Sequence record: PP174317.1
DNA: 64,000 bases
Strand: one strand, 5' to 3'
Origin: Acinetobacter phage vB_AbaSt_W16
In this document: in pieces, positions 22,736 to 27,600 of the stretch
How positions within the stretch are numbered: position 1 is the first letter of the stretch
Layout of the letters: each line of letters begins with the position of its first letter
Notes under the pieces: model-generated
Databases searched by the model: none
What the model saw: only the letters and a program-made list of their open reading frames with translations
What the model was told of the DNA's origin: nothing
Position numbers and translations under genes: made by a program

Positions 22736-22770
22736 GAAAAAACCCGCAAATTGCGGGTTTTCTTTTATTT
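22736..22770 (+). terminator. strong rho-independent terminator (A-run, ACCCGCAA-AT-TTGCGGGT, T-run); bidirectional
   Basis: gaaaaaaCCCGCAAATTGCGGGttttcttttattt. Confidence 0.85.
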
Positions 22771-22858
22771 GGCGGAAAGCAGTGTAGTCGAAACACAACC
22801 GATTTAACGGTCCACTCGGTTAGCAGTCGGTGCCAATGACCTCATTGATTTACTTTCC
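22770..22858 (-). ncRNA. tRNA-like element (type-II architecture, Ser-GCU-like anticodon loop CTGCTAA, encoded CCA) with a defective D-arm
   Basis: Acceptor GGAAAGT/GCTTTCC+G+CCA, T-arm GTGT-TTCGACT-ACAC, variable-arm hairpin ACCG-TTAAAT-CGGT; the D-arm cannot form canonically. Confidence 0.35.
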
Positions 22859-22859
22859 A

Positions 22860-23090
22860 TTATTGAATTACTGCAGTAGGTGTATAAAAATTAGATAATA
22901 CACTTAAAATCTTATCTAATTCAACTAATGCATGATATCGATTTTTATAAACTGATCTATGTTCGGTACATTCAACTTTGATACCAGTTGAAATATGAGT
23001 AACTCGAACACCTCTATCGGGCGTATTAACCCAATTACTATGTTTGCCTACTCTAAATGTATCAATTCTAATATCAGAAGGTAGTAGCAT
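22860..23090 (-). CDS. release-factor RF1 domain-3 (GGQ/peptidyl-tRNA hydrolase domain) homolog lacking the GGQ motif
   Basis: 76 aa; SDIRIDTFRVGKHSNWVNTPDRGVRVTHISTGIKVECTEHRSVYKNRYHAL aligns with bacterial RF1 ...[51 protein letters not shown] (from memory); GAGGQH replaced by GKHSNW; GAGGAAA RBS 7 nt upstream of the ATG. Confidence 0.7.
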   Translation of the reverse strand: MLLPSDIRIDTFRVGKHSNWVNTPDRGVRVTHISTGIKVECTEHRSVYKNRYHALVELDKILSVLSNFYTPTAVIQ

Positions 23091-23102
23091 TTTAATTTCC
23101 TC

Positions 23103-23216
23103 ATTTAAAAATACGAGCGGGAATCGAACCCGCTAGCGCCGTATGGTCTTACGCGAACCATTCTTTCAATGGAATCGAACCATCTGCAGCCTCCGCCGGC
23201 ACCTTCCACCAAGGTA
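23103..23216 (-). ncRNA. tRNA-like or degenerate region containing two GGTTCGATTCC T-arm motifs and an anticodon-like hairpin (loop CGCGTAA)
   Basis: Minus strand ...GATGG-TTCGATT-CCATT...TGGTT-CGCGTAA-GACCA...GCGGG-TTCGATT-CCCGC...; no canonical acceptor pairing found. Confidence 0.3.
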
Positions 23217-23666
23217 TCAGGTAATAATATAAATTGGTTTTTGTGGTAATATCGTCTCTAAATTATCAATAGTTCGACGAATTTTTGCCATCAAGTTTTT
23301 ATCAACAATTGCGTCAGGTCCAACATTAATAAAAACACGTTCGATTGTTTTAAGGGCATCAAATCCACGTAAGGAATTTGCATTTCTATAACCAGTAGAA
23401 AAAATAAAACAATCTTGGCCCAAATCAGATTTAAAATTCCGTGCTGCAGGTAAAGACTGTGCAACATAAAGATCAGTATCTTTATTAAAAATTTCTAAAA
23501 TATTTTTAGTACAATTAATAGGTGTGCACACATAAATCATACGATTGTAAATGGCATCTATAGGTTTATACGTTATTGGAGTTGTGGTTGCAGCTTTCTC
23601 TTTTACCTTATGGCATGTAAGATCTAAAAATCGTTGTAACTCATTCATAACATTCCATCCAAACAT
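23217..23666 (-). CDS. hypothetical protein
   Basis: 149 aa; the ATG follows directly after the terminator U-run and has no SD; the true start may be an internal Met. Confidence 0.5.
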   Translation of the reverse strand: MFGWNVMNELQRFLDLTCHKVKEKAATTTPITYKPIDAIYNRMIYVCTPINCTKNILEIFNKDTDLYVAQSLPAARNFKSDLGQDCFIFSTGYRNANSLRGFDALKTIERVFINVGPDAIVDKNLMAKIRRTIDNLETILPQKPIYIIT

Positions 23667-23703
23667 AATAAAAAATTGCCCAGGTTGGTAAGTTCAACCT
23701 GGG
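23666..23703 (-). terminator. rho-independent terminator downstream of the tRNA-Trp gene (CCCAGGTTG-7nt-CAACCTGGG followed by a U-run)
   Basis: Perfect 9-bp stem, then CAATTTTTTATT on the minus strand. Confidence 0.75.
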
Positions 23704-23734
23704 TCTTACAAGTCCCTTTAGGGAACTATTTGGC

Positions 23735-23806
23735 GGCGTCGCCAAGGACTCGAACCCTGGATTGCGGATTTGGAATCCACCGTGTTTCCAACTACACTAA
23801 CGACCC
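23735..23806 (-). tRNA. tRNA-Trp (anticodon CCA); CCA tail not encoded
   Basis: Cloverleaf: acceptor GGGTCGT/GCGACGC (one G-G mismatch at 2-71), D-arm GTGT-AGTTGGAA-ACAC, anticodon arm GTGGA-TTCCAAA-TCCGC, T-arm CAGGG-TTCGAGT-CCTTG. Confidence 0.6.
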
Positions 23807-24046
23807 TTAAACTGCAAATGTGCCAGCATGAAATAATCTCAAACACAATATAAAACCTGTTGTCAACGCAGGAAAGCTTAATGGCATGTCACGATATAAA
23901 TTGACAAGTGCATGCAAGCTGTTCTTTTTTAATTATATAGTAAGCACCAACAAATTGTGAAACGGTGGAATGAGTGAGGCAATTTGCTTTACTCAAGTAC
24001 CTATACTTACTATAGTGTATATTCGTCTTACGAGAAATATACAAAT

Positions 24047-24123
24047 TGGTCTCCGTAGAATGATTTGAACATTCGACACCTGCGTCCCAAACGCAGTGCT
24101 CTACCAGACTGAGCTATACGGAG
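24047..24123 (-). tRNA. tRNA-Pro (anticodon TGG), CCA encoded
   Basis: Perfect cloverleaf: CTCCGTA/TACGGAG acceptor, GCTC-AGTCTGGTA-GAGC, CTGCG-TTTGGGA-CGCAG, GAATG-TTCAAAT-CATTC, discriminator A+CCA. Confidence 0.9.
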
Positions 24124-24244
24124 TTAAATTGCCGTGAAATGTCCTTTTATACTTTCGAGCATTTCACCACTCAATAAGTAAATCTTGAAGCTTTATTTGT
24201 TTTACAAGAGGAAACTTCGTCCTGCTTATCAGGCAATTTAAAAA

Positions 24245-24339
24245 TGGCGGAAGGTGAGGGGGTCGAACCCTCAAGGCGTGTCACCACGCTCGACTGATTT
24301 CAAGTCAGCTGCCGTCGCCAGCTTTCGGCTTGACCTTCC
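24245..24339 (-). tRNA. tRNA-Ser (anticodon TGA), type II with a long variable arm, CCA encoded
   Basis: Acceptor GGAAGGT/ACCTTCC+G+CCA, anticodon arm GCTGA-CTTGAAA-TCAGT, variable arm GCGTG-GTGA-CACGC, T-arm GAGGG-TTCGACC-CCCTC. Confidence 0.85.
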
Positions 24340-24406
24340 AATAAAATATTGACGACCTAAGAACCTTTACACCAATAATGGAGACTTAGGACCCTTTACA
24401 TCAATT

Positions 24407-26206: not shown

Positions 26207-26282
26207 TGGTGGATACCGGGAGTGCTTGCACCTCCAATCAACTACGTTGTCCGCTGCTTTACTATTTAAGCTAACAGTACCC
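26207..26282 (-). ncRNA. tRNA-like element (paired acceptor stem with two G-U pairs plus encoded CCA) with non-canonical D, anticodon and T arms
   Basis: GGGTACT...GGTATCC-A-CCA, 76 nt; T-arm GGAG-9nt-CTCC lacks the TTC consensus; no 7-nt anticodon loop can be drawn. Confidence 0.3.
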
Positions 26283-26283
26283 A

Positions 26284-26360
26284 TGGAGACGCCGGATGGA
26301 TTCGAACCCTCATCGACGCGGATTTGCAATCCGCCGCATAACCAATTCTGCCACGACGTC
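26284..26360 (-). tRNA. tRNA-Cys (anticodon GCA), CCA encoded
   Basis: Acceptor GACGTCG/CGGCGTC, anticodon arm GCGGA-TTGCAAA-TCCGC, T-loop TTCGAAT, T+CCA. Confidence 0.75.
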
Positions 26361-26367
26361 TTAAACT

Positions 26368-26442
26368 TGGTGGGCCCAGGGAATTTCGAAATCCCAACCT
26401 TCAGATTATGAGTCTGCTGCTCCGCCTTTGAGCTATAGGCCC
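26368..26442 (-). tRNA. tRNA-Met/Ile2 (anticodon CAT), CCA encoded
   Basis: Acceptor GGGCCTA/TGGGCCC+A+CCA, D-arm GCTC-AAAGGCG-GAGC, anticodon loop CTCATAA, T-loop TTCGAAA; the 5' 10 nt overlap the stop of the GIY-YIG gene. Confidence 0.75.
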
Positions 26443-27095
26443 TTAAACATTTTACGCCCTTTATTCCAACCTTCTGGAATAGGATCATTTTTATCTATTC
26501 GTTTGGATTGTTTCAACTCTAGTGAGTATATCCACATTTTTCCAAACTGAGAATTTTGTTCAGGTGTTCTTGATTTTGCGGCAATTGACATCTTTTGTTT
26601 AGTTTCATCCGAATGCTTTTTACCAGTCCAGTCATACTTCCATGCTTTTAAAGCTGATTTTTTAAACTCAGGATTGGTCCATAAAGTTTTTTGAATTTTA
26701 GACATTTTAGAACAAAACTCTTCATTAAACTTTGCATCGGTATTAAGCTTATTTACAAAAGTAGATGATCTCTTTTTATTTCTTAATGATATTACATATG
26801 CATCAGAATTAATATGATCCCAACCGCCAAAACCACCTAATTTTAAATTGTATGTATCTTTACGATCTACAAAATCTTGATCGACAATTAAAGCTTCCAT
26901 TTCAAACATATCTGATTCAGAATCATGATACATCAAAATATCTTTCTTAAAATTTTCAATACCATATTTGGCGATTGATCTTTTAAGAATTTTACCGGAA
27001 CCCATATAATTATCTTCAAGATTGTCAGTCTTGTGAACACCAATATAAATTTTACCATTTATCAAGTTGGTAATCTTGTACGTATAAAAATGCAT
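26433..27095 (-). mobile_element. GIY-YIG homing endonuclease (SegB-like, full length) within the tRNA cluster
   Basis: 220 aa; YTYKITN..NGKIYIGVHKT GIY-YIG motif; NUMOD3-like GKKHSDETKQKMS; the TAG stop lies inside tRNA-Met; T4 segB is likewise inside the tRNA cluster. Confidence 0.8.
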
Positions 27096-27150
27096 GAATA
27101 TCCTTAATAATTCGTAACGTTACAAGGATATTTATATTCATGCGAAAAAG

Positions 27151-27223
27151 CCCGCCTGACAGGATTCGAACCTGTGTGAGTCGCAATAGAACTACGATGC
27201 CTAATCCATTCGGCCACAGACGG
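27151..27223 (-). tRNA. tRNA-Arg (anticodon TCT); CCA not encoded
   Basis: Acceptor CCGTCTG/CAGGCGG, anticodon arm TCGTA-GTTCTAT-TGCGA, T-arm ACAGG-TTCGAAT-CCTGT. Confidence 0.8.
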
Positions 27224-27229
27224 ATAATT

Positions 27230-27303
27230 TGGTCGTTCAGGACGGATTCGAACCGTCACACAGAGTTTTAGGGACTCCTGGTCTACCGTTAACCTACTGA
27301 ACG
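27230..27303 (-). tRNA. tRNA with an apparent CUA anticodon (amber-reading, suppressor-like); short D-arm; C at position 33
   Basis: Acceptor CGTTCAG/CTGAACG+A+CCA, anticodon arm GGAGT-CCCTAAA-ACTCT, T-arm GACGG-TTCGAAT-CCGTC. Confidence 0.5.
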
Positions 27304-27306
27304 AAA

Positions 27307-27327
27307 CCCGCTAAAATAAAGCGGGAG
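27307..27327 (-). other. hairpin CCCGC-TTTATTTTA-GCGGG followed by TTT directly 5' of the CUA-tRNA
   Basis: 5-bp GC stem in an AT-rich context. Confidence 0.4.
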
Positions 27328-27484
27328 TTGATCAAGTTACGCATTATCAAGAGGCTATTGATCCATGAAAATAAAATTACTTGACCATCCTGGCAGATTT
27401 GTTGGAATTCCACCAACTATCTCCATCATATCTAAGATGGCATTCTAATCTTGAACTATAATCCACTAGGTCAAAGTAACTTTT

Positions 27485-27600
27485 AAATGATAACGAATAT
27501 TGATGGGACTCGAACCACATATCAACCGGGTTTAACAGGCCGGTTATGCTCCAGTATCAGGCGCAAGCTTAACCAATTAGCTACTGATTCATTATCATTT
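27485..27600 (-). ncRNA. tRNA-like RNA enclosed by a 14-bp terminal stem (AAATGATAATGAAT/ATTCGTTATCATTT)
   Basis: Core has D-arm GCT-AATTGGTTA-AGC, an Asn-like anticodon hairpin ACCGG-CCTGTTAAAC-CCGGT, and T-arm ATG(T)GG-TTCGAGT-CCCAT with a 1-nt bulge; no 7-bp acceptor, instead a long closing stem. Confidence 0.4.

What the first reader, a model, noticed from the sequence alone, without database searches (positions are those of the whole stretch)
22770..27600. tRNA cluster contains several non-canonical tRNA-like RNAs, two of them closed by unusually long perfect stems (14 and 16 bp)
Besides 9 canonical tRNAs (Trp, Pro, Ser-UGA, Asn, Thr, Cys, Met/Ile-CAU, Arg-UCU, CUA), I see five further elements. 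(a) 22770-22858: acceptor+CCA+T-arm+variable arm but no D-arm, with a Ser-GCU-like loop. (b) 23103-23216: two GGTTCGATTCC T-arms in tandem with an anticodon-like hairpin whose loop is CGCGTAA. (c) 26207-26282: a 76-nt RNA with paired acceptor+CCA but non-canonical internal arms. (d) 27485-27600: a tRNA-like core (D-arm, Asn-like anticodon hairpin, bulged T-arm) enclosed by a 14-bp stem AAATGATAATGAAT/ATTCGTTATCATTT instead of a 7-bp acceptor. (e) 24571-24662: a 60-nt core enclosed by a perfect 16-bp stem directly 5' of tRNA-Thr. T4 encodes two stable RNAs of unknown function (species 1/2, rnaC/rnaD) in its tRNA cluster. These could be analogous stable RNAs, processing (RNase III/P) substrates, decayed tRNA genes, or tRNA mimics. 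The long closing stems are not explained by any annotated feature.
Basis: seen in the sequence. Interest (0 to 1): 0.6.

Follow-up and report, generated by a model that had tools for sequence, protein, structure and literature searches.

The report
Phage tRNA-like RNAs, long leader hairpins
The odd elements in this Acinetobacter phage's tRNA cluster are real, conserved tRNA-derived RNAs (one matches phage T5's long-known, unexplained 'RNA2') plus long leader hairpins that probably act as RNA-processing stems, so the finding belongs to a known but still unexplained class.

Summary
The window is a ZZ1/Henu6-type T4-like Acinetobacter phage, with its tRNA operon on the minus strand. All five elements exist, but they are not one thing.

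- **(a)** is this phage group's unusual tRNA-Ser(GCU). It does have a D-position hairpin, and that hairpin covaries.
- **(b)** is a homolog of phage T5 'RNA2', annotated in T5 as a tRNA-like stable RNA of unknown function. It is found in 427 phage records, and three of its helices covary.
- **(c)** is an unannotated, CCA-ending tRNA-like gene in 53 Acinetobacter phage records. It is related to class-II tRNA-Tyr genes with the same odd T-arm, but it has lost the anticodon loop.
- **(d)** is a tRNA-Tyr-derived core. It sits in the loop of a leader hairpin that is 23 bp long, not 14.
  - The stem is conserved with compensatory changes in all related phages examined.
  - It lies just after a terminator-like hairpin, and in most lineages just before the first tRNA.
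  - Its cargo differs between lineages and is absent in one genus.
- **(e)** is a second, lineage-specific long hairpin, 2 nt before tRNA-Thr.
- **(f)**, at 27392-27465, is a sixth tRNA-like element that I found.

Most likely these RNAs are cut from the tRNA precursor by host tRNA-processing enzymes, and the long stems act as RNase III-type processing or stabilising stems. Their function is unknown. None is homologous to T4 rnaC or rnaD.

The parts
22770..22858 (-). (a) tRNA-Ser(GCU)-family gene, 89 nt, ending in CCA. The window/ZZ1/Henu6 allele has the anticodon-loop closing pair changed from C-G to A.C.
   Evidence: It is 80-91% identical to genes annotated tRNA-Ser in AM101, Maestro, PhT2 and AC4. 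Across the family, 99.5% of cells are paired. The D-position hairpin has 3 compensatory pairs and the T stem has 2. The only unpaired cell in the family is the window lineage's 32:40 pair.
23106..23229 (-). (b) Homolog of phage T5 RNA2, a tRNA-like stable RNA. Sub-features: long-range helix H1 at 23197-23202 with 23136-23141; T-arm 1 at 23169-23183; anticodon-like hairpin at 23143-23161 (loop CGCGUAA); T-arm 2 at 23117-23133, followed by UCGUAUUUUU.
   Evidence: BLAST finds 427 phage records. T5 and BF23 annotate the matched stretch as rna2. Both T-arms covary. Five H1 pairs are formed in 10 of 10 sequences, with 2-4 pair types each. T-arm 2 plus the U run scores as terminator-like.
24571..24662 (-). 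(e) Long hairpin: a perfect 16-bp stem around a 60-nt core, ending 2 nt upstream of tRNA-Thr.
   Evidence: Supported. It is present only in ZZ1 and the window. Henu6 has the same arms (one base differs) around a short, different core, giving a roughly 25-bp hairpin. Other genera have no hairpin at this position.
24673..24680 (-). TATAAATA motif (the T4 late-promoter consensus), 10 nt upstream of (e). It is conserved upstream of tRNA-Thr in all relatives examined.
   Evidence: Seen in the sequence and in the comparison of relatives. Promoter activity is inferred from knowledge of T4, not tested here.
26207..26282 (-). (c) 76-nt tRNA-like gene. It starts 1 nt after the CCA of tRNA-Cys and ends in ACCA. 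Acceptor pairs are G1-C72, G2-C71 and G3.U70, with A73. The T-arm is GGAGG-UGCAAGC-ACUCC. It has no anticodon loop.
   Evidence: It occurs in 53 phage records and is never annotated as an RNA. There are two alleles, of 76 nt and 101-102 nt. Relatives with the same T-arm include class-II tRNA-Tyr(GUA) genes.
27476..27609 (-). Leader hairpin: a 23-bp stem (GUAACUUUUAAAUGAUAAUGAAU / AUUCGUUAUCAUUUAAAAGUUAC) enclosing the (d) core.
   Evidence: Supported. On the (d) alignment the 23 stem pairs are 99.3% paired and 6 show changes on both sides. Across 7 lineages the outer 16 bp are 99.1% paired, 8 of 16 pairs are compensatory, and 0 of 500 shuffles reach the observed values.
27499..27586 (-). (d) Core: tRNA-like, with a canonical D-arm (U8, A14, G18G19, A21), hairpin GCGCC-UGAUACU-GGAGC, hairpin AACCGG-(10 nt)-CCGGUU, and a bulged T-arm. 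It has no CCA and no intact 7-bp acceptor stem.
   Evidence: It is 96-100% identical in Hadassahvirus phages. PhT2 carries a compensatory change in the T stem. At the same locus, Acj9 has a gene annotated tRNA-Tyr(GUA) with the same D-arm.
27606..27634 (-). Terminator-like hairpin AGUUACCUC-UUAAUU-GAGGUAACU followed by UUUU. Its 3' arm overlaps the 5' arm of the leader hairpin, so the two pairings are mutually exclusive.
   Evidence: Found by the terminator scan. The equivalent site is annotated as a terminator in Minot. Both alternative pairings are preserved in phage 133 by coordinated changes.
27392..27465 (-). (f) Additional tRNA-like element with a cloverleaf fold, an 8-nt anticodon loop (UUAGAUAU) and T-loop UGGAAUU.
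   Evidence: Found with relaxed ARAGORN settings. By BLAST it is restricted to ZZ1 and Henu6. A homologous core forms the cargo of the leader hairpin in the 164-kb contig L099: the D-arm is nearly identical and two T-stem pairs are compensated.
24407..24485 (-). tRNA-Asn(GUU) with non-standard features: an 11-nt D loop, G.G at 7:66 and C.A at 27:43.
   Evidence: Found only with relaxed ARAGORN settings. No Rfam hit. It is 100% identical in four other phages.
23735..23806 (-). tRNA-Trp(CCA), canonical.
24047..24123 (-). tRNA-Pro(UGG), canonical.
24245..24339 (-). tRNA-Ser(UGA), class II.
24493..24568 (-). tRNA-Thr(UGU), canonical.
26284..26360 (-). tRNA-Cys(GCA), canonical.
26368..26442 (-). 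tRNA-Met/Ile(CAU), canonical.
27150..27223 (-). tRNA-Arg(UCU), canonical.
27230..27303 (-). tRNA with anticodon CUA (amber-suppressor type). Its anticodon loop is CCCUAAA.

Best explanation
The elements are tRNA-derived structured RNAs of two kinds, embedded in a mosaic tRNA operon that contains a homing-endonuclease gene.

Kind 1: discrete tRNA-like genes.
- (b) is the counterpart of phage T5 RNA2. In T5 this RNA is tRNA-shaped, with the anticodon arm replaced by a three-way junction that carries a second T-arm and an anticodon-like hairpin.
- (c) belongs to a class-II tRNA-Tyr lineage with a peculiar T-arm. It has lost its anticodon loop but keeps the acceptor stem and CCA.
- (a) is the phage group's idiosyncratic tRNA-Ser(GCU).
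- (f) is a further tRNA-like RNA.

Kind 2: long A/U-rich leader hairpins placed directly upstream of the first tRNA, or tRNA-like element, of a subcluster.
- The (d) stem (17-23 bp) is conserved in every related lineage examined and shares its 5' arm with the preceding terminator hairpin. Its loop carries interchangeable tRNA-like cargo, or none.
- (e) is a second, lineage-specific hairpin of this type.

Proposed working (inferred, not shown):
1. The cluster is transcribed as a polycistronic precursor, partly by read-through of the leaky terminator.
2. RNase P and the 3'-processing enzymes release the tRNAs and the CCA-ending mimics.
3. In read-through transcripts the long stem forms and is cut by a double-strand-specific nuclease (host RNase III). 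This separates the upstream mRNA, which can refold its 3' terminator hairpin, from the tRNA precursor.
4. The enclosed tRNA-like core is released as an RNA with protected ends.

The released mimics most likely act by binding tRNA-recognising host proteins, but no target is identified.
For: Shown by the analyses:
- The window is about 99% identical to phages Henu6 and ZZ1.
- (b) is homologous to T5/BF23 rna2, annotated 'tRNA-like stable RNA with unknown functions'. T-arm 1, T-arm 2 and H1 all covary. In phage 133 the homolog fills exactly the 105 nt between the CCA of tRNA-Gly and G1 of tRNA-Cys.
- (c): conservation stops exactly at CCA and begins 1-2 nt after tRNA-Cys. It is in 53 records. Relatives with the identical T-arm include tRNA-Tyr(GUA) genes in tRNA arrays.
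- (d): 44 modelled pairs are 97% paired, 7 have changes on both sides, and 0 of 500 shuffles reach the observed values. The stem is present in Zedzedvirus, Hadassahvirus, Lazarusvirus (12-nt loop only), Acj9, phage 133 and L099. Eight of the outer 16 pairs are compensatory.
- Mismatches in the stems are mostly G.U on the tRNA-sense strand, about 8 against 1 C.A. This points to an RNA transcribed from the tRNA strand.
- In phage 133 the hub sequence GUAACU became GUGGCU, and both of its alternative partners changed to match.
- The hairpins end 2-19 nt before a tRNA or tRNA-like 5' end, except in L099 where a coding sequence follows.

From the literature:
- E. coli RNase III takes part in maturation of T4 tRNAs (PMC4810235, citing McClain 1979).
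- T4 RNAC and RNAD accumulate as RNAs of unknown role (PMC3014915, PMC9697503).
Against: - No expression or processing data exist for this phage. RNase III cleavage, RNase P cleavage and accumulation of these RNAs are all inferred.
- The Lazarusvirus stem is only 17 bp, at the short end for RNase III.
- In the Acinetobacter-phage copies of (b) the acceptor stem is weak or absent.
- (e) and (f) are confined to one lineage by BLAST, so selection on them is barely testable.
- The high identity of the (c) and (d) cores between genera could partly reflect recent gene conversion driven by homing endonucleases rather than purifying selection.
- The inner acceptor of (d) has decayed relative to the Acj9 version.
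- No protein partner or function is identified.
Confidence: 0.55

Rival explanations
1. The elements are decayed tRNA genes and recombination scars without function. They would be left behind by repeated gene conversion, driven by homing endonucleases, in a mosaic tRNA region.
For: - A Seg-like GIY-YIG endonuclease gene lies inside the cluster, and gene order differs even between ZZ1 and Henu6.
- The (e) core and the tRNA-Thr body are swapped as a block between Henu6 and the window.
- (e) and (f) are lineage-restricted.
- The inner acceptor of (d) is unpaired compared with Acj9.
- (c) looks like a tRNA-Tyr with its anticodon loop deleted.
- The window's allele of (a) carries the only broken pair in its family.
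Against: Compensatory changes preserve helices in (b), in the (d) stem and T-arm, and in the D hairpin of (a). The (b) family is retained across two phage families in 427 records. (c) is retained in 53 records with sharp boundaries. Neutral relics would not keep pairing through many substitutions.
Confidence: 0.2
2. The long stems are transcription-control elements rather than processing sites. The (d) hairpin would be a second, tandem terminator or part of a terminator switch that sets how much transcription enters the tRNA cluster. (e) would be a 5' stem-loop that stabilises a late transcript.
For: - The 5' arm of the (d) stem overlaps the 3' arm of a terminator-like hairpin, and both pairings are conserved.
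- Minot annotates a terminator there.
- In Lazarusvirus the stem is followed by UUUUAU.
- (e) begins 10 nt after a conserved TATAAATA motif.
Against: The alternative partner lies downstream of the terminator's U tract, about 110 nt away in the window. It therefore cannot prevent termination in the way a classical attenuator does. In several lineages only 6-17 nt separate the stem from the first tRNA. That leaves no room for a promoter, so efficient termination there would silence the tRNAs.
Confidence: 0.15
3. Some of the elements are working decoding tRNAs after unusual maturation. (a) would read AGY serine codons. The Acj9-type or (d)-type core would act as a tRNA-Tyr after trimming and CCA addition. 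(f) would be a quadruplet or frameshift decoder. The long (c) allele would be a second amber suppressor, since its apical loop is UUCUAGA.
For: - Orthologs of (a) are called tRNA-Ser(GCU) and keep a full covarying fold.
- The Acj9 homolog of (d) is annotated tRNA-Tyr(GUA).
- (f) folds as a cloverleaf with an 8-nt loop.
- The cluster already encodes a CUA tRNA.
Against: - (b), (c), (d) and (e) get no Rfam tRNA hit even at E<=10, and neither does the Acj9 'tRNA-Tyr'.
- (d) lacks U33, a 7-bp acceptor stem and CCA.
- The window's short (c) allele has no anticodon loop at all.
- The anticodon-like loop of (b) lacks a conserved U33.
Confidence: 0.1
4. The inverted repeats act at the DNA level, for example as cruciforms, recombination or homing-endonuclease target sites, or replication elements.
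For: They are the most prominent short-range inverted repeats in the window and lie in a recombination-prone region that holds an endonuclease gene.
Against: Non-Watson-Crick positions in the stems are almost all G.U on the tRNA-sense strand. On the other strand, and in DNA, these would be A.C mismatches. The stems also sit at fixed distances from tRNA 5' ends and from a terminator hairpin on the same strand.
Confidence: 0.05

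Closest known systems
Phage T5 / BF23 RNA2 (rna2), annotated 'tRNA-like stable RNA with unknown functions'
   Same: (b) aligns with it from T-arm 1 to T-arm 2 at 76-78% identity, including the non-tRNA linker UGAAAGAAUGGUUC. 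It shares H1, both T-arms and the anticodon-like hairpin, with compensatory changes. Both lie inside a tRNA cluster.
   Different: T5 RNA2 has a perfect 8-bp acceptor-like stem and a clear D-arm. In the Acinetobacter-phage copies the terminal stem is weak or variable and the D region is conserved in sequence rather than in pairing. In the window the 3' T-arm is followed by a U run and by the ribosome-binding site of the RF-1-domain gene.
Phage T4 RNAC/RNAD (species 1 and 2 RNAs)
   Same: They are small RNAs encoded at the edge of a T4-type tRNA cluster and their role is unknown. rnaC carries a tRNA-type T-arm near its 3' end.
   Different: No sequence homology to any of (a)-(f) was detected. 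The RNA2-family HMM hits T4 only at a generic T-arm, E about 7, and BLAST with (c), (d), (e) and (f) finds only Acinetobacter phages.
RNase III processing stems (rRNA precursor stems; RNase III in T4 tRNA maturation)
   Same: The 5' and 3' flanks pair into a helix of about 20 bp that encloses a structured RNA and marks the boundary of a stable-RNA precursor. RNase III is reported to take part in T4 tRNA maturation (PMC4810235).
   Different: Cleavage is untested here. The Lazarusvirus version is only 17 bp with a 12-nt loop. The enclosed cargo is an optional tRNA-like RNA rather than an essential rRNA.
Class-II tRNA-Tyr(GUA) genes with T-loop UGCGAGC, from phage and metagenome tRNA arrays (L044, L050)
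   Same: (c) has the identical 17-nt T-arm GGAGGUGCRAGCACUCC, a similar D-loop (UAAAUAGUA, shared with L050), discriminator A73 and CCA, and lies close behind an upstream tRNA.
   Different: (c) has no 7-nt anticodon loop. The short allele keeps only the 5' half of the anticodon stem plus a small hairpin. It also has G3.U70 where the relatives have G-C or C-G.
tmRNA tRNA-like domain and alanine-accepting minihelices
   Same: (c) combines an acceptor stem, a T-arm and CCA with G3.U70 and A73, and it has no anticodon. From established knowledge (Hou and Schimmel 1988; McClain and Foss 1988), G3.U70 is the main determinant for AlaRS, and PMC3985003 states that tmRNA is charged with alanine.
   Different: (c) has no mRNA-like domain or pseudoknots, and ARAGORN finds no tmRNA in the region. 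Charging is untested. The invariance of G3.U70 rests on closely related sequences only.
Bacterial Y RNA (YrlA-type) tRNA mimics
   Same: (d) combines a long stem formed by the 5' and 3' ends with a tRNA-like module that has D- and T-arm features.
   Different: No Rfam family is hit. In (d) the terminal stem continues the acceptor position. My recollection is that in YrlA it replaces the anticodon stem. No Ro/Rsr gene was looked for.

Membership tests
Canonical tRNA (Rfam RF00005) | Scores at or above the family's gathering threshold (29 bits) against the tRNA covariance model | tested here: not met
   No tRNA hit for (a), (b), (c), (d), (e), (f) or the Asn gene, even at E<=10 over 5.2 kb. Seven neighbouring tRNAs score 42-66 bits.
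Canonical tRNA (Rfam RF00005) | 7-bp acceptor stem with a 3' discriminator and CCA | tested here: inconclusive
   Met by (a) and (c). Not met by (d), (e) or the window's (b). (f) has a weak acceptor stem with an A.A mismatch.
Canonical tRNA (Rfam RF00005) | 7-nt anticodon loop with U33 on a 5-bp stem | tested here: not met
   - (a), window allele: the closing pair is broken, giving an effective 9-nt loop.
- (b): loop CGCGUAA, with position 33 variable across the family.
- (c): no such loop.
- (d): loop UGAUACU with G33.
- (f): 8-nt loop.
T5 RNA2 family | Sequence homology to the annotated T5/BF23 rna2 beyond generic T-arm similarity | tested here: met
   BLAST covers 78-81 nt at about 77% identity, E = 4e-7, including the linker UGAAAGAAUGGUUC.
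T5 RNA2 family | Shared secondary structure: H1, two T-arms and an anticodon-like hairpin | tested here: met
   RNAalifold finds both T-arms, with 3-4 sequences changed on both sides at several of their pairs. Five H1 pairs are formed in 10 of 10 sequences, with 2-4 pair types each.
T5 RNA2 family | Terminal acceptor-like stem (8 bp in T5) and accumulation as a stable RNA | tested here: inconclusive
   The stem is perfect in T5-like phages but weak or variable in the Acinetobacter-phage copies. Accumulation cannot be tested with these tools.
T4 rnaC / rnaD | Sequence homology | tested here: not met
   nhmmer with the RNA2-family HMM gives only an E of about 7 at the T-arm of rnaC. BLAST with (c), (d), (e) and (f) finds no T4-type coliphage hits.
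RNase III substrate | Roughly two turns (about 20 bp) of near-perfect double-stranded RNA | tested here: met
   The (d) stem is 23 bp in the window and 17-23 bp in relatives. (e) has 16 perfect bp that continue through a 1-nt bulge into further pairs. The Henu6 allele is about 25 bp.
RNase III substrate | Staggered double-strand cleavage by RNase III | not testable with these tools
   This needs in vitro cleavage or end mapping in wild-type versus rnc-mutant hosts.
AlaRS substrates (tRNA-Ala, tmRNA, minihelices) | G3.U70 wobble pair in the acceptor helix, with A73 and CCA | tested here: met
   (c) has G1-C72, G2-C71, G3.U70 and A73-CCA in all 13 sequences aligned. Relatives L044 and L050 have G-C and C-G at 3:70. 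Aminoacylation itself cannot be tested here.
Intrinsic terminator (hairpin upstream of the (d) stem) | G+C-containing stem followed by a U tract | tested here: met
   Terminator-like site at 27634-27606. The equivalent site is annotated as a terminator in Minot. Function is not tested.

The most novel reading that the evidence does not exclude
The conserved leader hairpin may be a modular expression slot. Different lineages would load different tRNA-like cargos into it: the (d) type, a Tyr-like type, an (f)-like type, or none. Each cargo would be released as a tRNA mimic with protected ends.

Together with the cross-family RNA2 homolog and an anticodon-less, possibly alanine-chargeable (c), these would form a phage toolkit of tRNA decoys. 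The decoys would titrate host factors that target or sense tRNA, such as anticodon nucleases. An RloC-type anticodon nuclease is known in the genus Acinetobacter (PMC3874168).
Probability: 0.12. Interest if true: 0.8.

Novelty: new variant of a known kind. Interest (0 to 1): 0.5.

Why it matters
Phage tRNA clusters have been known for decades to encode stable tRNA-like RNAs, such as T4 RNAC/RNAD and T5 RNA2, whose roles remain unknown (PMC3014915, PMC9697503).

Three results here make that old question more approachable:
- RNA2 is conserved, with covariation, in both T5-like phages and T4-like Acinetobacter phages. This gives a structural model and a conserved non-tRNA motif to test.
- Two further unannotated tRNA-like families, (c) and (d), are defined.
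- The long stems form a conserved leader hairpin with swappable cargo. This yields concrete, cheap experiments: an rnc mutant host, end mapping and deletion of the stem.

There is also a practical point. These elements are currently missed or mis-annotated as hypothetical proteins in dozens of genomes of A. baumannii phages.

Tried and rejected
- **Rfam:** scans at the gathering threshold and at E<=10 found no family for (a)-(f), including Y RNA and tmRNA-type families.
- **ARAGORN:** the intron and tmRNA modes added nothing. The mitochondrial mode gave only weak calls, for example an Ile/Met-like call for the (e) core.
- **T4 rnaC/rnaD homology:** rejected.
- **(b) as a remnant of the tRNA-Met that precedes the RF-1 gene in Hadassahvirus:** rejected, because the upstream sequences are unrelated.
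- **(b) as a scrambled fragment of tRNA-Ser(GCU):** suggested by a 17-nt T-arm match, but superseded by the RNA2 homology.
- **Wider relatives of (c):** its T-arm plus CCA gave no hit in 185,579 bacterial and archaeal genomes. The metagenome scan gave 3 loci: the L044 phage again, one tRNA-Tyr and one other class-II-like tRNA.
- **Gapped pattern scans for the leader-hairpin ends in IMG/VR:** mostly chance palindromes. Only L099 was new; the Acj9 and AbTZA1 contigs recurred.
- **The 16-nt arm of (e):** it is not a dispersed repeat in the window.
- **Global alignment of the (e) core against about 200 phage tRNAs:** no relative found.
- **The T4 region upstream of tRNA-Gln:** it folds into only an 11-bp hairpin, so it gave no direct structural precedent.
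- **Literature searches:** no functional study of T5 RNA2 was found, and none of these Acinetobacter-phage elements.
- **Not done:** a covariance model of the RNA2 family was not built. A one-column gap offset in the MAFFT alignment meant H1 had to be counted by script instead.

Full report
**Identity of the window.** The 5-kb region is 98.7-99.2% identical to Acinetobacter phages Henu6 and ZZ1 (Straboviridae, Twarogvirinae, Zedzedvirus). It shares 80-86% identity in patches with about 60 other T4-like A. baumannii phages. The tRNA operon is on the minus strand, between the gp57B-side genes and a bidirectional terminator after (a).

**Checking the observation.**
- ARAGORN at default settings finds eight tRNAs. 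Rfam's tRNA model finds seven of them, and Ser-UGA matches only tRNA-Sec below that family's threshold.
- None of the five listed elements hits any Rfam family, even at E<=10.
- All five are at the stated coordinates.
- Relaxed ARAGORN settings also reveal a sixth tRNA-like element, (f), at 27392-27465, with an 8-nt anticodon loop.
- The two long stems are real and stand out. The (d) repeat is 23 nt per arm (27476-27498 and 27587-27609, 96% complementary). It is the top-listed (longest) short-range inverted repeat in the whole 64-kb window. (e) is a perfect 16-bp repeat.
- Folding energies lie far outside the shuffles: (e) z = -4.6 and extended (d) z = -3.9, with 0 of 200 shuffles folding as well in each case.

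**Element (a).**
- It is 80-91% identical to 89-nt genes annotated tRNA-Ser, with anticodon GCU where the record states one, in AM101, Maestro, PhT2 and AC4. Every relative examined has a copy.
- On the 11-sequence alignment my cloverleaf is 99.5% paired.
- The hairpin in the D position is a 5-bp stem with a 6-nt GG-containing loop. It has three pairs changed on both sides (CCAAU/AUUGG versus CUGGU/ACCAG). The T stem has two such pairs.
- (a) is therefore not D-armless. It is a conserved, non-standard tRNA-Ser(GCU).
- The single unpaired cell in the family belongs to the window/ZZ1/Henu6 allele. There the pair that closes the anticodon loop changed from C-G to A.C.

**Element (b).**
- BLAST at distant sensitivity finds 427 phage records. 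They are mostly T5-like Salmonella and Escherichia phages, plus Acinetobacter phages Acj9, 133 and AB1I1M-1.
- In T5 (AY543070) and BF23 the matched stretch is annotated rna2, 'tRNA-like stable RNA with unknown functions'. It lies in a tRNA cluster next to other stable RNAs: rnaIV, rna3 and rna2H.
- The alignment shows a conserved non-tRNA linker, UGAAAGAAUGGUUC. It sits between a first T-arm and an anticodon-like hairpin with loop CNCRUAA.
- Both T-arms covary.
- A long-range helix, H1, is paired at five positions in 10 of 10 sequences, with 2-4 pair types each. Examples are GUGCCG/CGGCGC in the window, UCCCUA/UAGGGA in Acj9 and ACUUG/CAAGU in T5.
- In T5 the whole RNA reads as a tRNA: an 8-bp acceptor-like stem, a D-arm, H1 in the anticodon-stem position carrying a roughly 57-nt three-way insertion, and a T-arm.
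- In phage 133 the homolog is exactly the 105 nt between the CCA of tRNA-Gly and G1 of tRNA-Cys. This is the arrangement expected for an RNA excised by tRNA-processing enzymes.
- In the window the 3' T-arm followed by UCGUAUUUUU also scores as an intrinsic terminator. It directly precedes the ribosome-binding site of an RF-1-domain ORF.
- An HMM of the family finds no second copy in the window. In T4 it finds only a generic T-arm match.

**Element (c).**
- It is present in 53 phage records and never annotated as an RNA. Several records have a 'hypothetical protein' laid over it.
- Conservation begins 1-2 nt after the CCA of tRNA-Cys where tRNA-Cys is the upstream neighbour, and it ends exactly at ACCA. 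The flanks then diverge completely.
- There are two alleles. The 76-nt form is in the window. The 101-102-nt form has a longer central arm whose apical loop is UUCUAGA.
- A search for its peculiar T-arm, GGAGG-UGCRAGC-ACUCC, found relatives in an IMG/VR phage contig and in metagenomes. It found nothing in 185,579 bacterial and archaeal genomes.
- Two of these relatives (L044, L050) are class-II tRNAs with a normal CUGUAAA anticodon loop, that is tRNA-Tyr(GUA). L050 sits in an Ile-Tyr-Asn array and shares the D-loop of (c).
- (c) thus descends from a tRNA-Tyr-type gene. It keeps the 5' half of the anticodon stem and a small hairpin but has lost the anticodon loop.
- Its acceptor stem carries G1-C72, G2-C71 and G3.U70, plus A73, in all 13 sequences aligned. 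From established knowledge this is the identity set for alanyl-tRNA synthetase. Whether (c) is charged is untested, and the relatives have Watson-Crick pairs at 3:70.

**Element (d) and the leader hairpin.**
- The 85-nt core is 96.5-100% identical in Hadassahvirus phages, whereas the closing stem differs.
- On ten sequences (seven distinct) my 44-pair model is 97% paired. Seven pairs have changes on both sides: six in the closing stem and one in the bulged T stem. There is also a compensated one-base-pair deletion in PhT2. No shuffle and no slid control comes close to the observed values.
- The core has a textbook D-arm (U8, A14, G18G19, A21). It lacks U33, an intact 7-bp acceptor stem and CCA.
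- The decisive comparison is with other lineages. All of them have the same terminator-like hairpin (AGUUACCUC...GAGGUAACU plus Us), followed by a long stem that starts GUAACUUUU and ends AAAAGUUAC. The loop content differs between lineages:

| Lineage | Loop content |
|---|---|
| Zedzedvirus, Hadassahvirus | the (d) core |
| Acj9 | a 93-nt gene annotated tRNA-Tyr(GUA) with the same D-arm, itself missed by Rfam |
| Phage 133 | a truncated tRNA-like core |
| L099 (164-kb contig) | a core homologous to (f) |
| Lazarusvirus | only 12 nt |

- Across seven lineages the outer 16 bp are 99.1% paired. Eight pairs are compensatory, and 0 of 500 shuffles reach the observed values.
- In phage 133 the shared hub changed from GUAACU to GUGGCU. 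Both of its mutually exclusive partners, the upstream terminator arm and the downstream stem arm, changed to match. Both structures therefore appear to be under selection.
- Non-Watson-Crick positions are about eight G.U against one C.A on the tRNA-sense strand. This favours an RNA structure on that strand over a DNA cruciform.
- The hairpin ends about 6-19 nt before the first tRNA or tRNA-like gene. L099 is the exception, where a coding sequence follows.

**Element (e).**
- By BLAST only ZZ1 shares it.
- Henu6 has the same arms (one base differs) around a short, unrelated core, giving a hairpin of about 25 bp. It also has a different tRNA-Thr allele. This looks like a block exchange.
- Other genera have no hairpin at this position, although the upstream TATAAATA motif is conserved.
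- The constant features are again a long stem with a variable interior, placed 2 nt before a tRNA.

**Element (f).** It is restricted to the ZZ1 lineage by BLAST. The cargo of the L099 leader hairpin shares its D-arm (UAGUUCAARRUUAGAAU). Its T stem has two compensated pairs: GUUGG/CCAAC versus AUCGG/CCGAU.

**How it most likely works.**
- What is shown: these are conserved structured elements, and G.U tolerance on the tRNA strand indicates that the (d) stem acts as RNA. (b) belongs to a family whose T5 member is annotated as a stable RNA. The long stems are the conserved unit, and their cargo is optional.
- What is inferred: they are co-transcribed with the tRNAs, RNase P and 3' trimming excise the CCA-ending and tRNA-flanked species, and RNase III cuts the 17-23-bp A/U-rich stems.
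- Such a cut would separate the upstream mRNA from the tRNA precursor. The upstream mRNA could then refold its terminator hairpin as a 3' cap. The core would be released with protected ends.
- RNase III involvement in T4 tRNA maturation is on record (PMC4810235, citing McClain 1979).
- The function of the released mimics is unknown, as it still is for T4 RNAC and RNAD (PMC3014915, PMC9697503). My best guess is competition for tRNA-binding host proteins. An anticodon nuclease, RloC, is known in the genus Acinetobacter (PMC3874168), but nothing here links it to these RNAs.

**Rival explanations.**
- Neutral relics of homing-endonuclease-driven recombination. This is plausible for the (e) core, the inner acceptor of (d) and the window's (a) allele. 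It is contradicted for (b), (c) and the stems by covariation and sharp boundaries.
- Transcription-control hairpins. The overlap with a terminator is real, but the alternative partner lies downstream of the U tract, and in several lineages there is no room for a promoter before the first tRNA.
- Working decoding tRNAs. This is likely for (a) and unlikely for the rest.
- DNA-level palindromes. The G.U asymmetry argues against this.

**Novelty and verdict.**
- (b) is a new member of a known family.
- (c), (d) and (f) are new, unannotated tRNA-like families of the same known kind.
- I found no prior description of a conserved leader hairpin with swappable tRNA-like cargo.
- Overall this is a new variant of a known kind. 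Interest is moderate. The finding gives structure models, conserved motifs and simple experiments for an old open question, but it does not reveal a function.

Noticed in passing
window 22860-23090 (-): A 76-aa ORF matches the Pfam RF-1 (peptide release factor / peptidyl-tRNA hydrolase) domain at E = 3e-10. The catalytic GGQ is replaced by G-K-H (RVGKHSNWVN). The ORF lies between (b) and (a). In other genera the homolog sits elsewhere in the tRNA cluster.
   Followed up: partly
window 27230-27303 (-): The CUA (amber-suppressor type) tRNA has anticodon loop CCCUAAA, with C rather than the near-universal U at position 33. The Maestro allele has the normal CUCUAAA.
   Followed up: no
window 24407-24485 (-): tRNA-Asn(GUU) has an 11-nt D loop and two stem mismatches. 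Rfam and default ARAGORN both miss it, yet it is 100% identical in Konradin, AbTZA1, PhT2 and Berthold, which belong to different genera.
   Followed up: partly
window 26433-27095 (-): A Seg-like GIY-YIG homing endonuclease gene lies between tRNA-Arg and tRNA-Met. It is present in Henu6 and absent from ZZ1, where Arg and Met are 8 nt apart.
   Followed up: partly
window 24493-24662 (-) versus L002:4573-4672: Between the window and Henu6, which are otherwise about 99% identical, the (e) core and the body of tRNA-Thr are replaced by a diverged allele with compensatory stem changes. The flanks stay identical. This looks like a gene-conversion tract.
   Followed up: partly
L003:3674-3751; L004:3532-3608: Relatives carry further odd tRNAs. 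One is a 78-nt 'tRNA-Leu(UAG)' without the long variable arm expected for Leu. Another is a tRNA-like gene with a 6-nt anticodon loop.
   Followed up: no
window 24663-24970 (-): A non-coding stretch of about 310 nt lies between the 189-aa ORF and (e). The roughly 150 nt nearest tRNA-Thr contain blocks conserved across genera, ending in TATAAATA. The content of the stretch is unexplained.
   Followed up: no
L044:2952-3316: A 95.9-kb IMG/VR phage contig carries the tRNA-Tyr relative of (c). ARAGORN also predicts a tmRNA gene beside its tRNA cluster.
   Followed up: no
window 27606-27642 (-): The 5' arm of the terminator hairpin is preceded by a direct repeat of UUACCUC (AUUACCUC-AGUUACCUC). This gives the hub GAGGUAA a third possible pairing partner.
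   Followed up: no
L014:603-675, 1612-1714, 2573-2744: T5 annotates three more stable or tRNA-like RNAs in the same cluster: rna3, rnaIV and rna2H. rna3 ends in ACCA and follows tRNA-Asn by 2 nt, an arrangement parallel to (c). Distant BLAST with (c), (d), (e) and (f) found no T5-like phage.
   Followed up: partly
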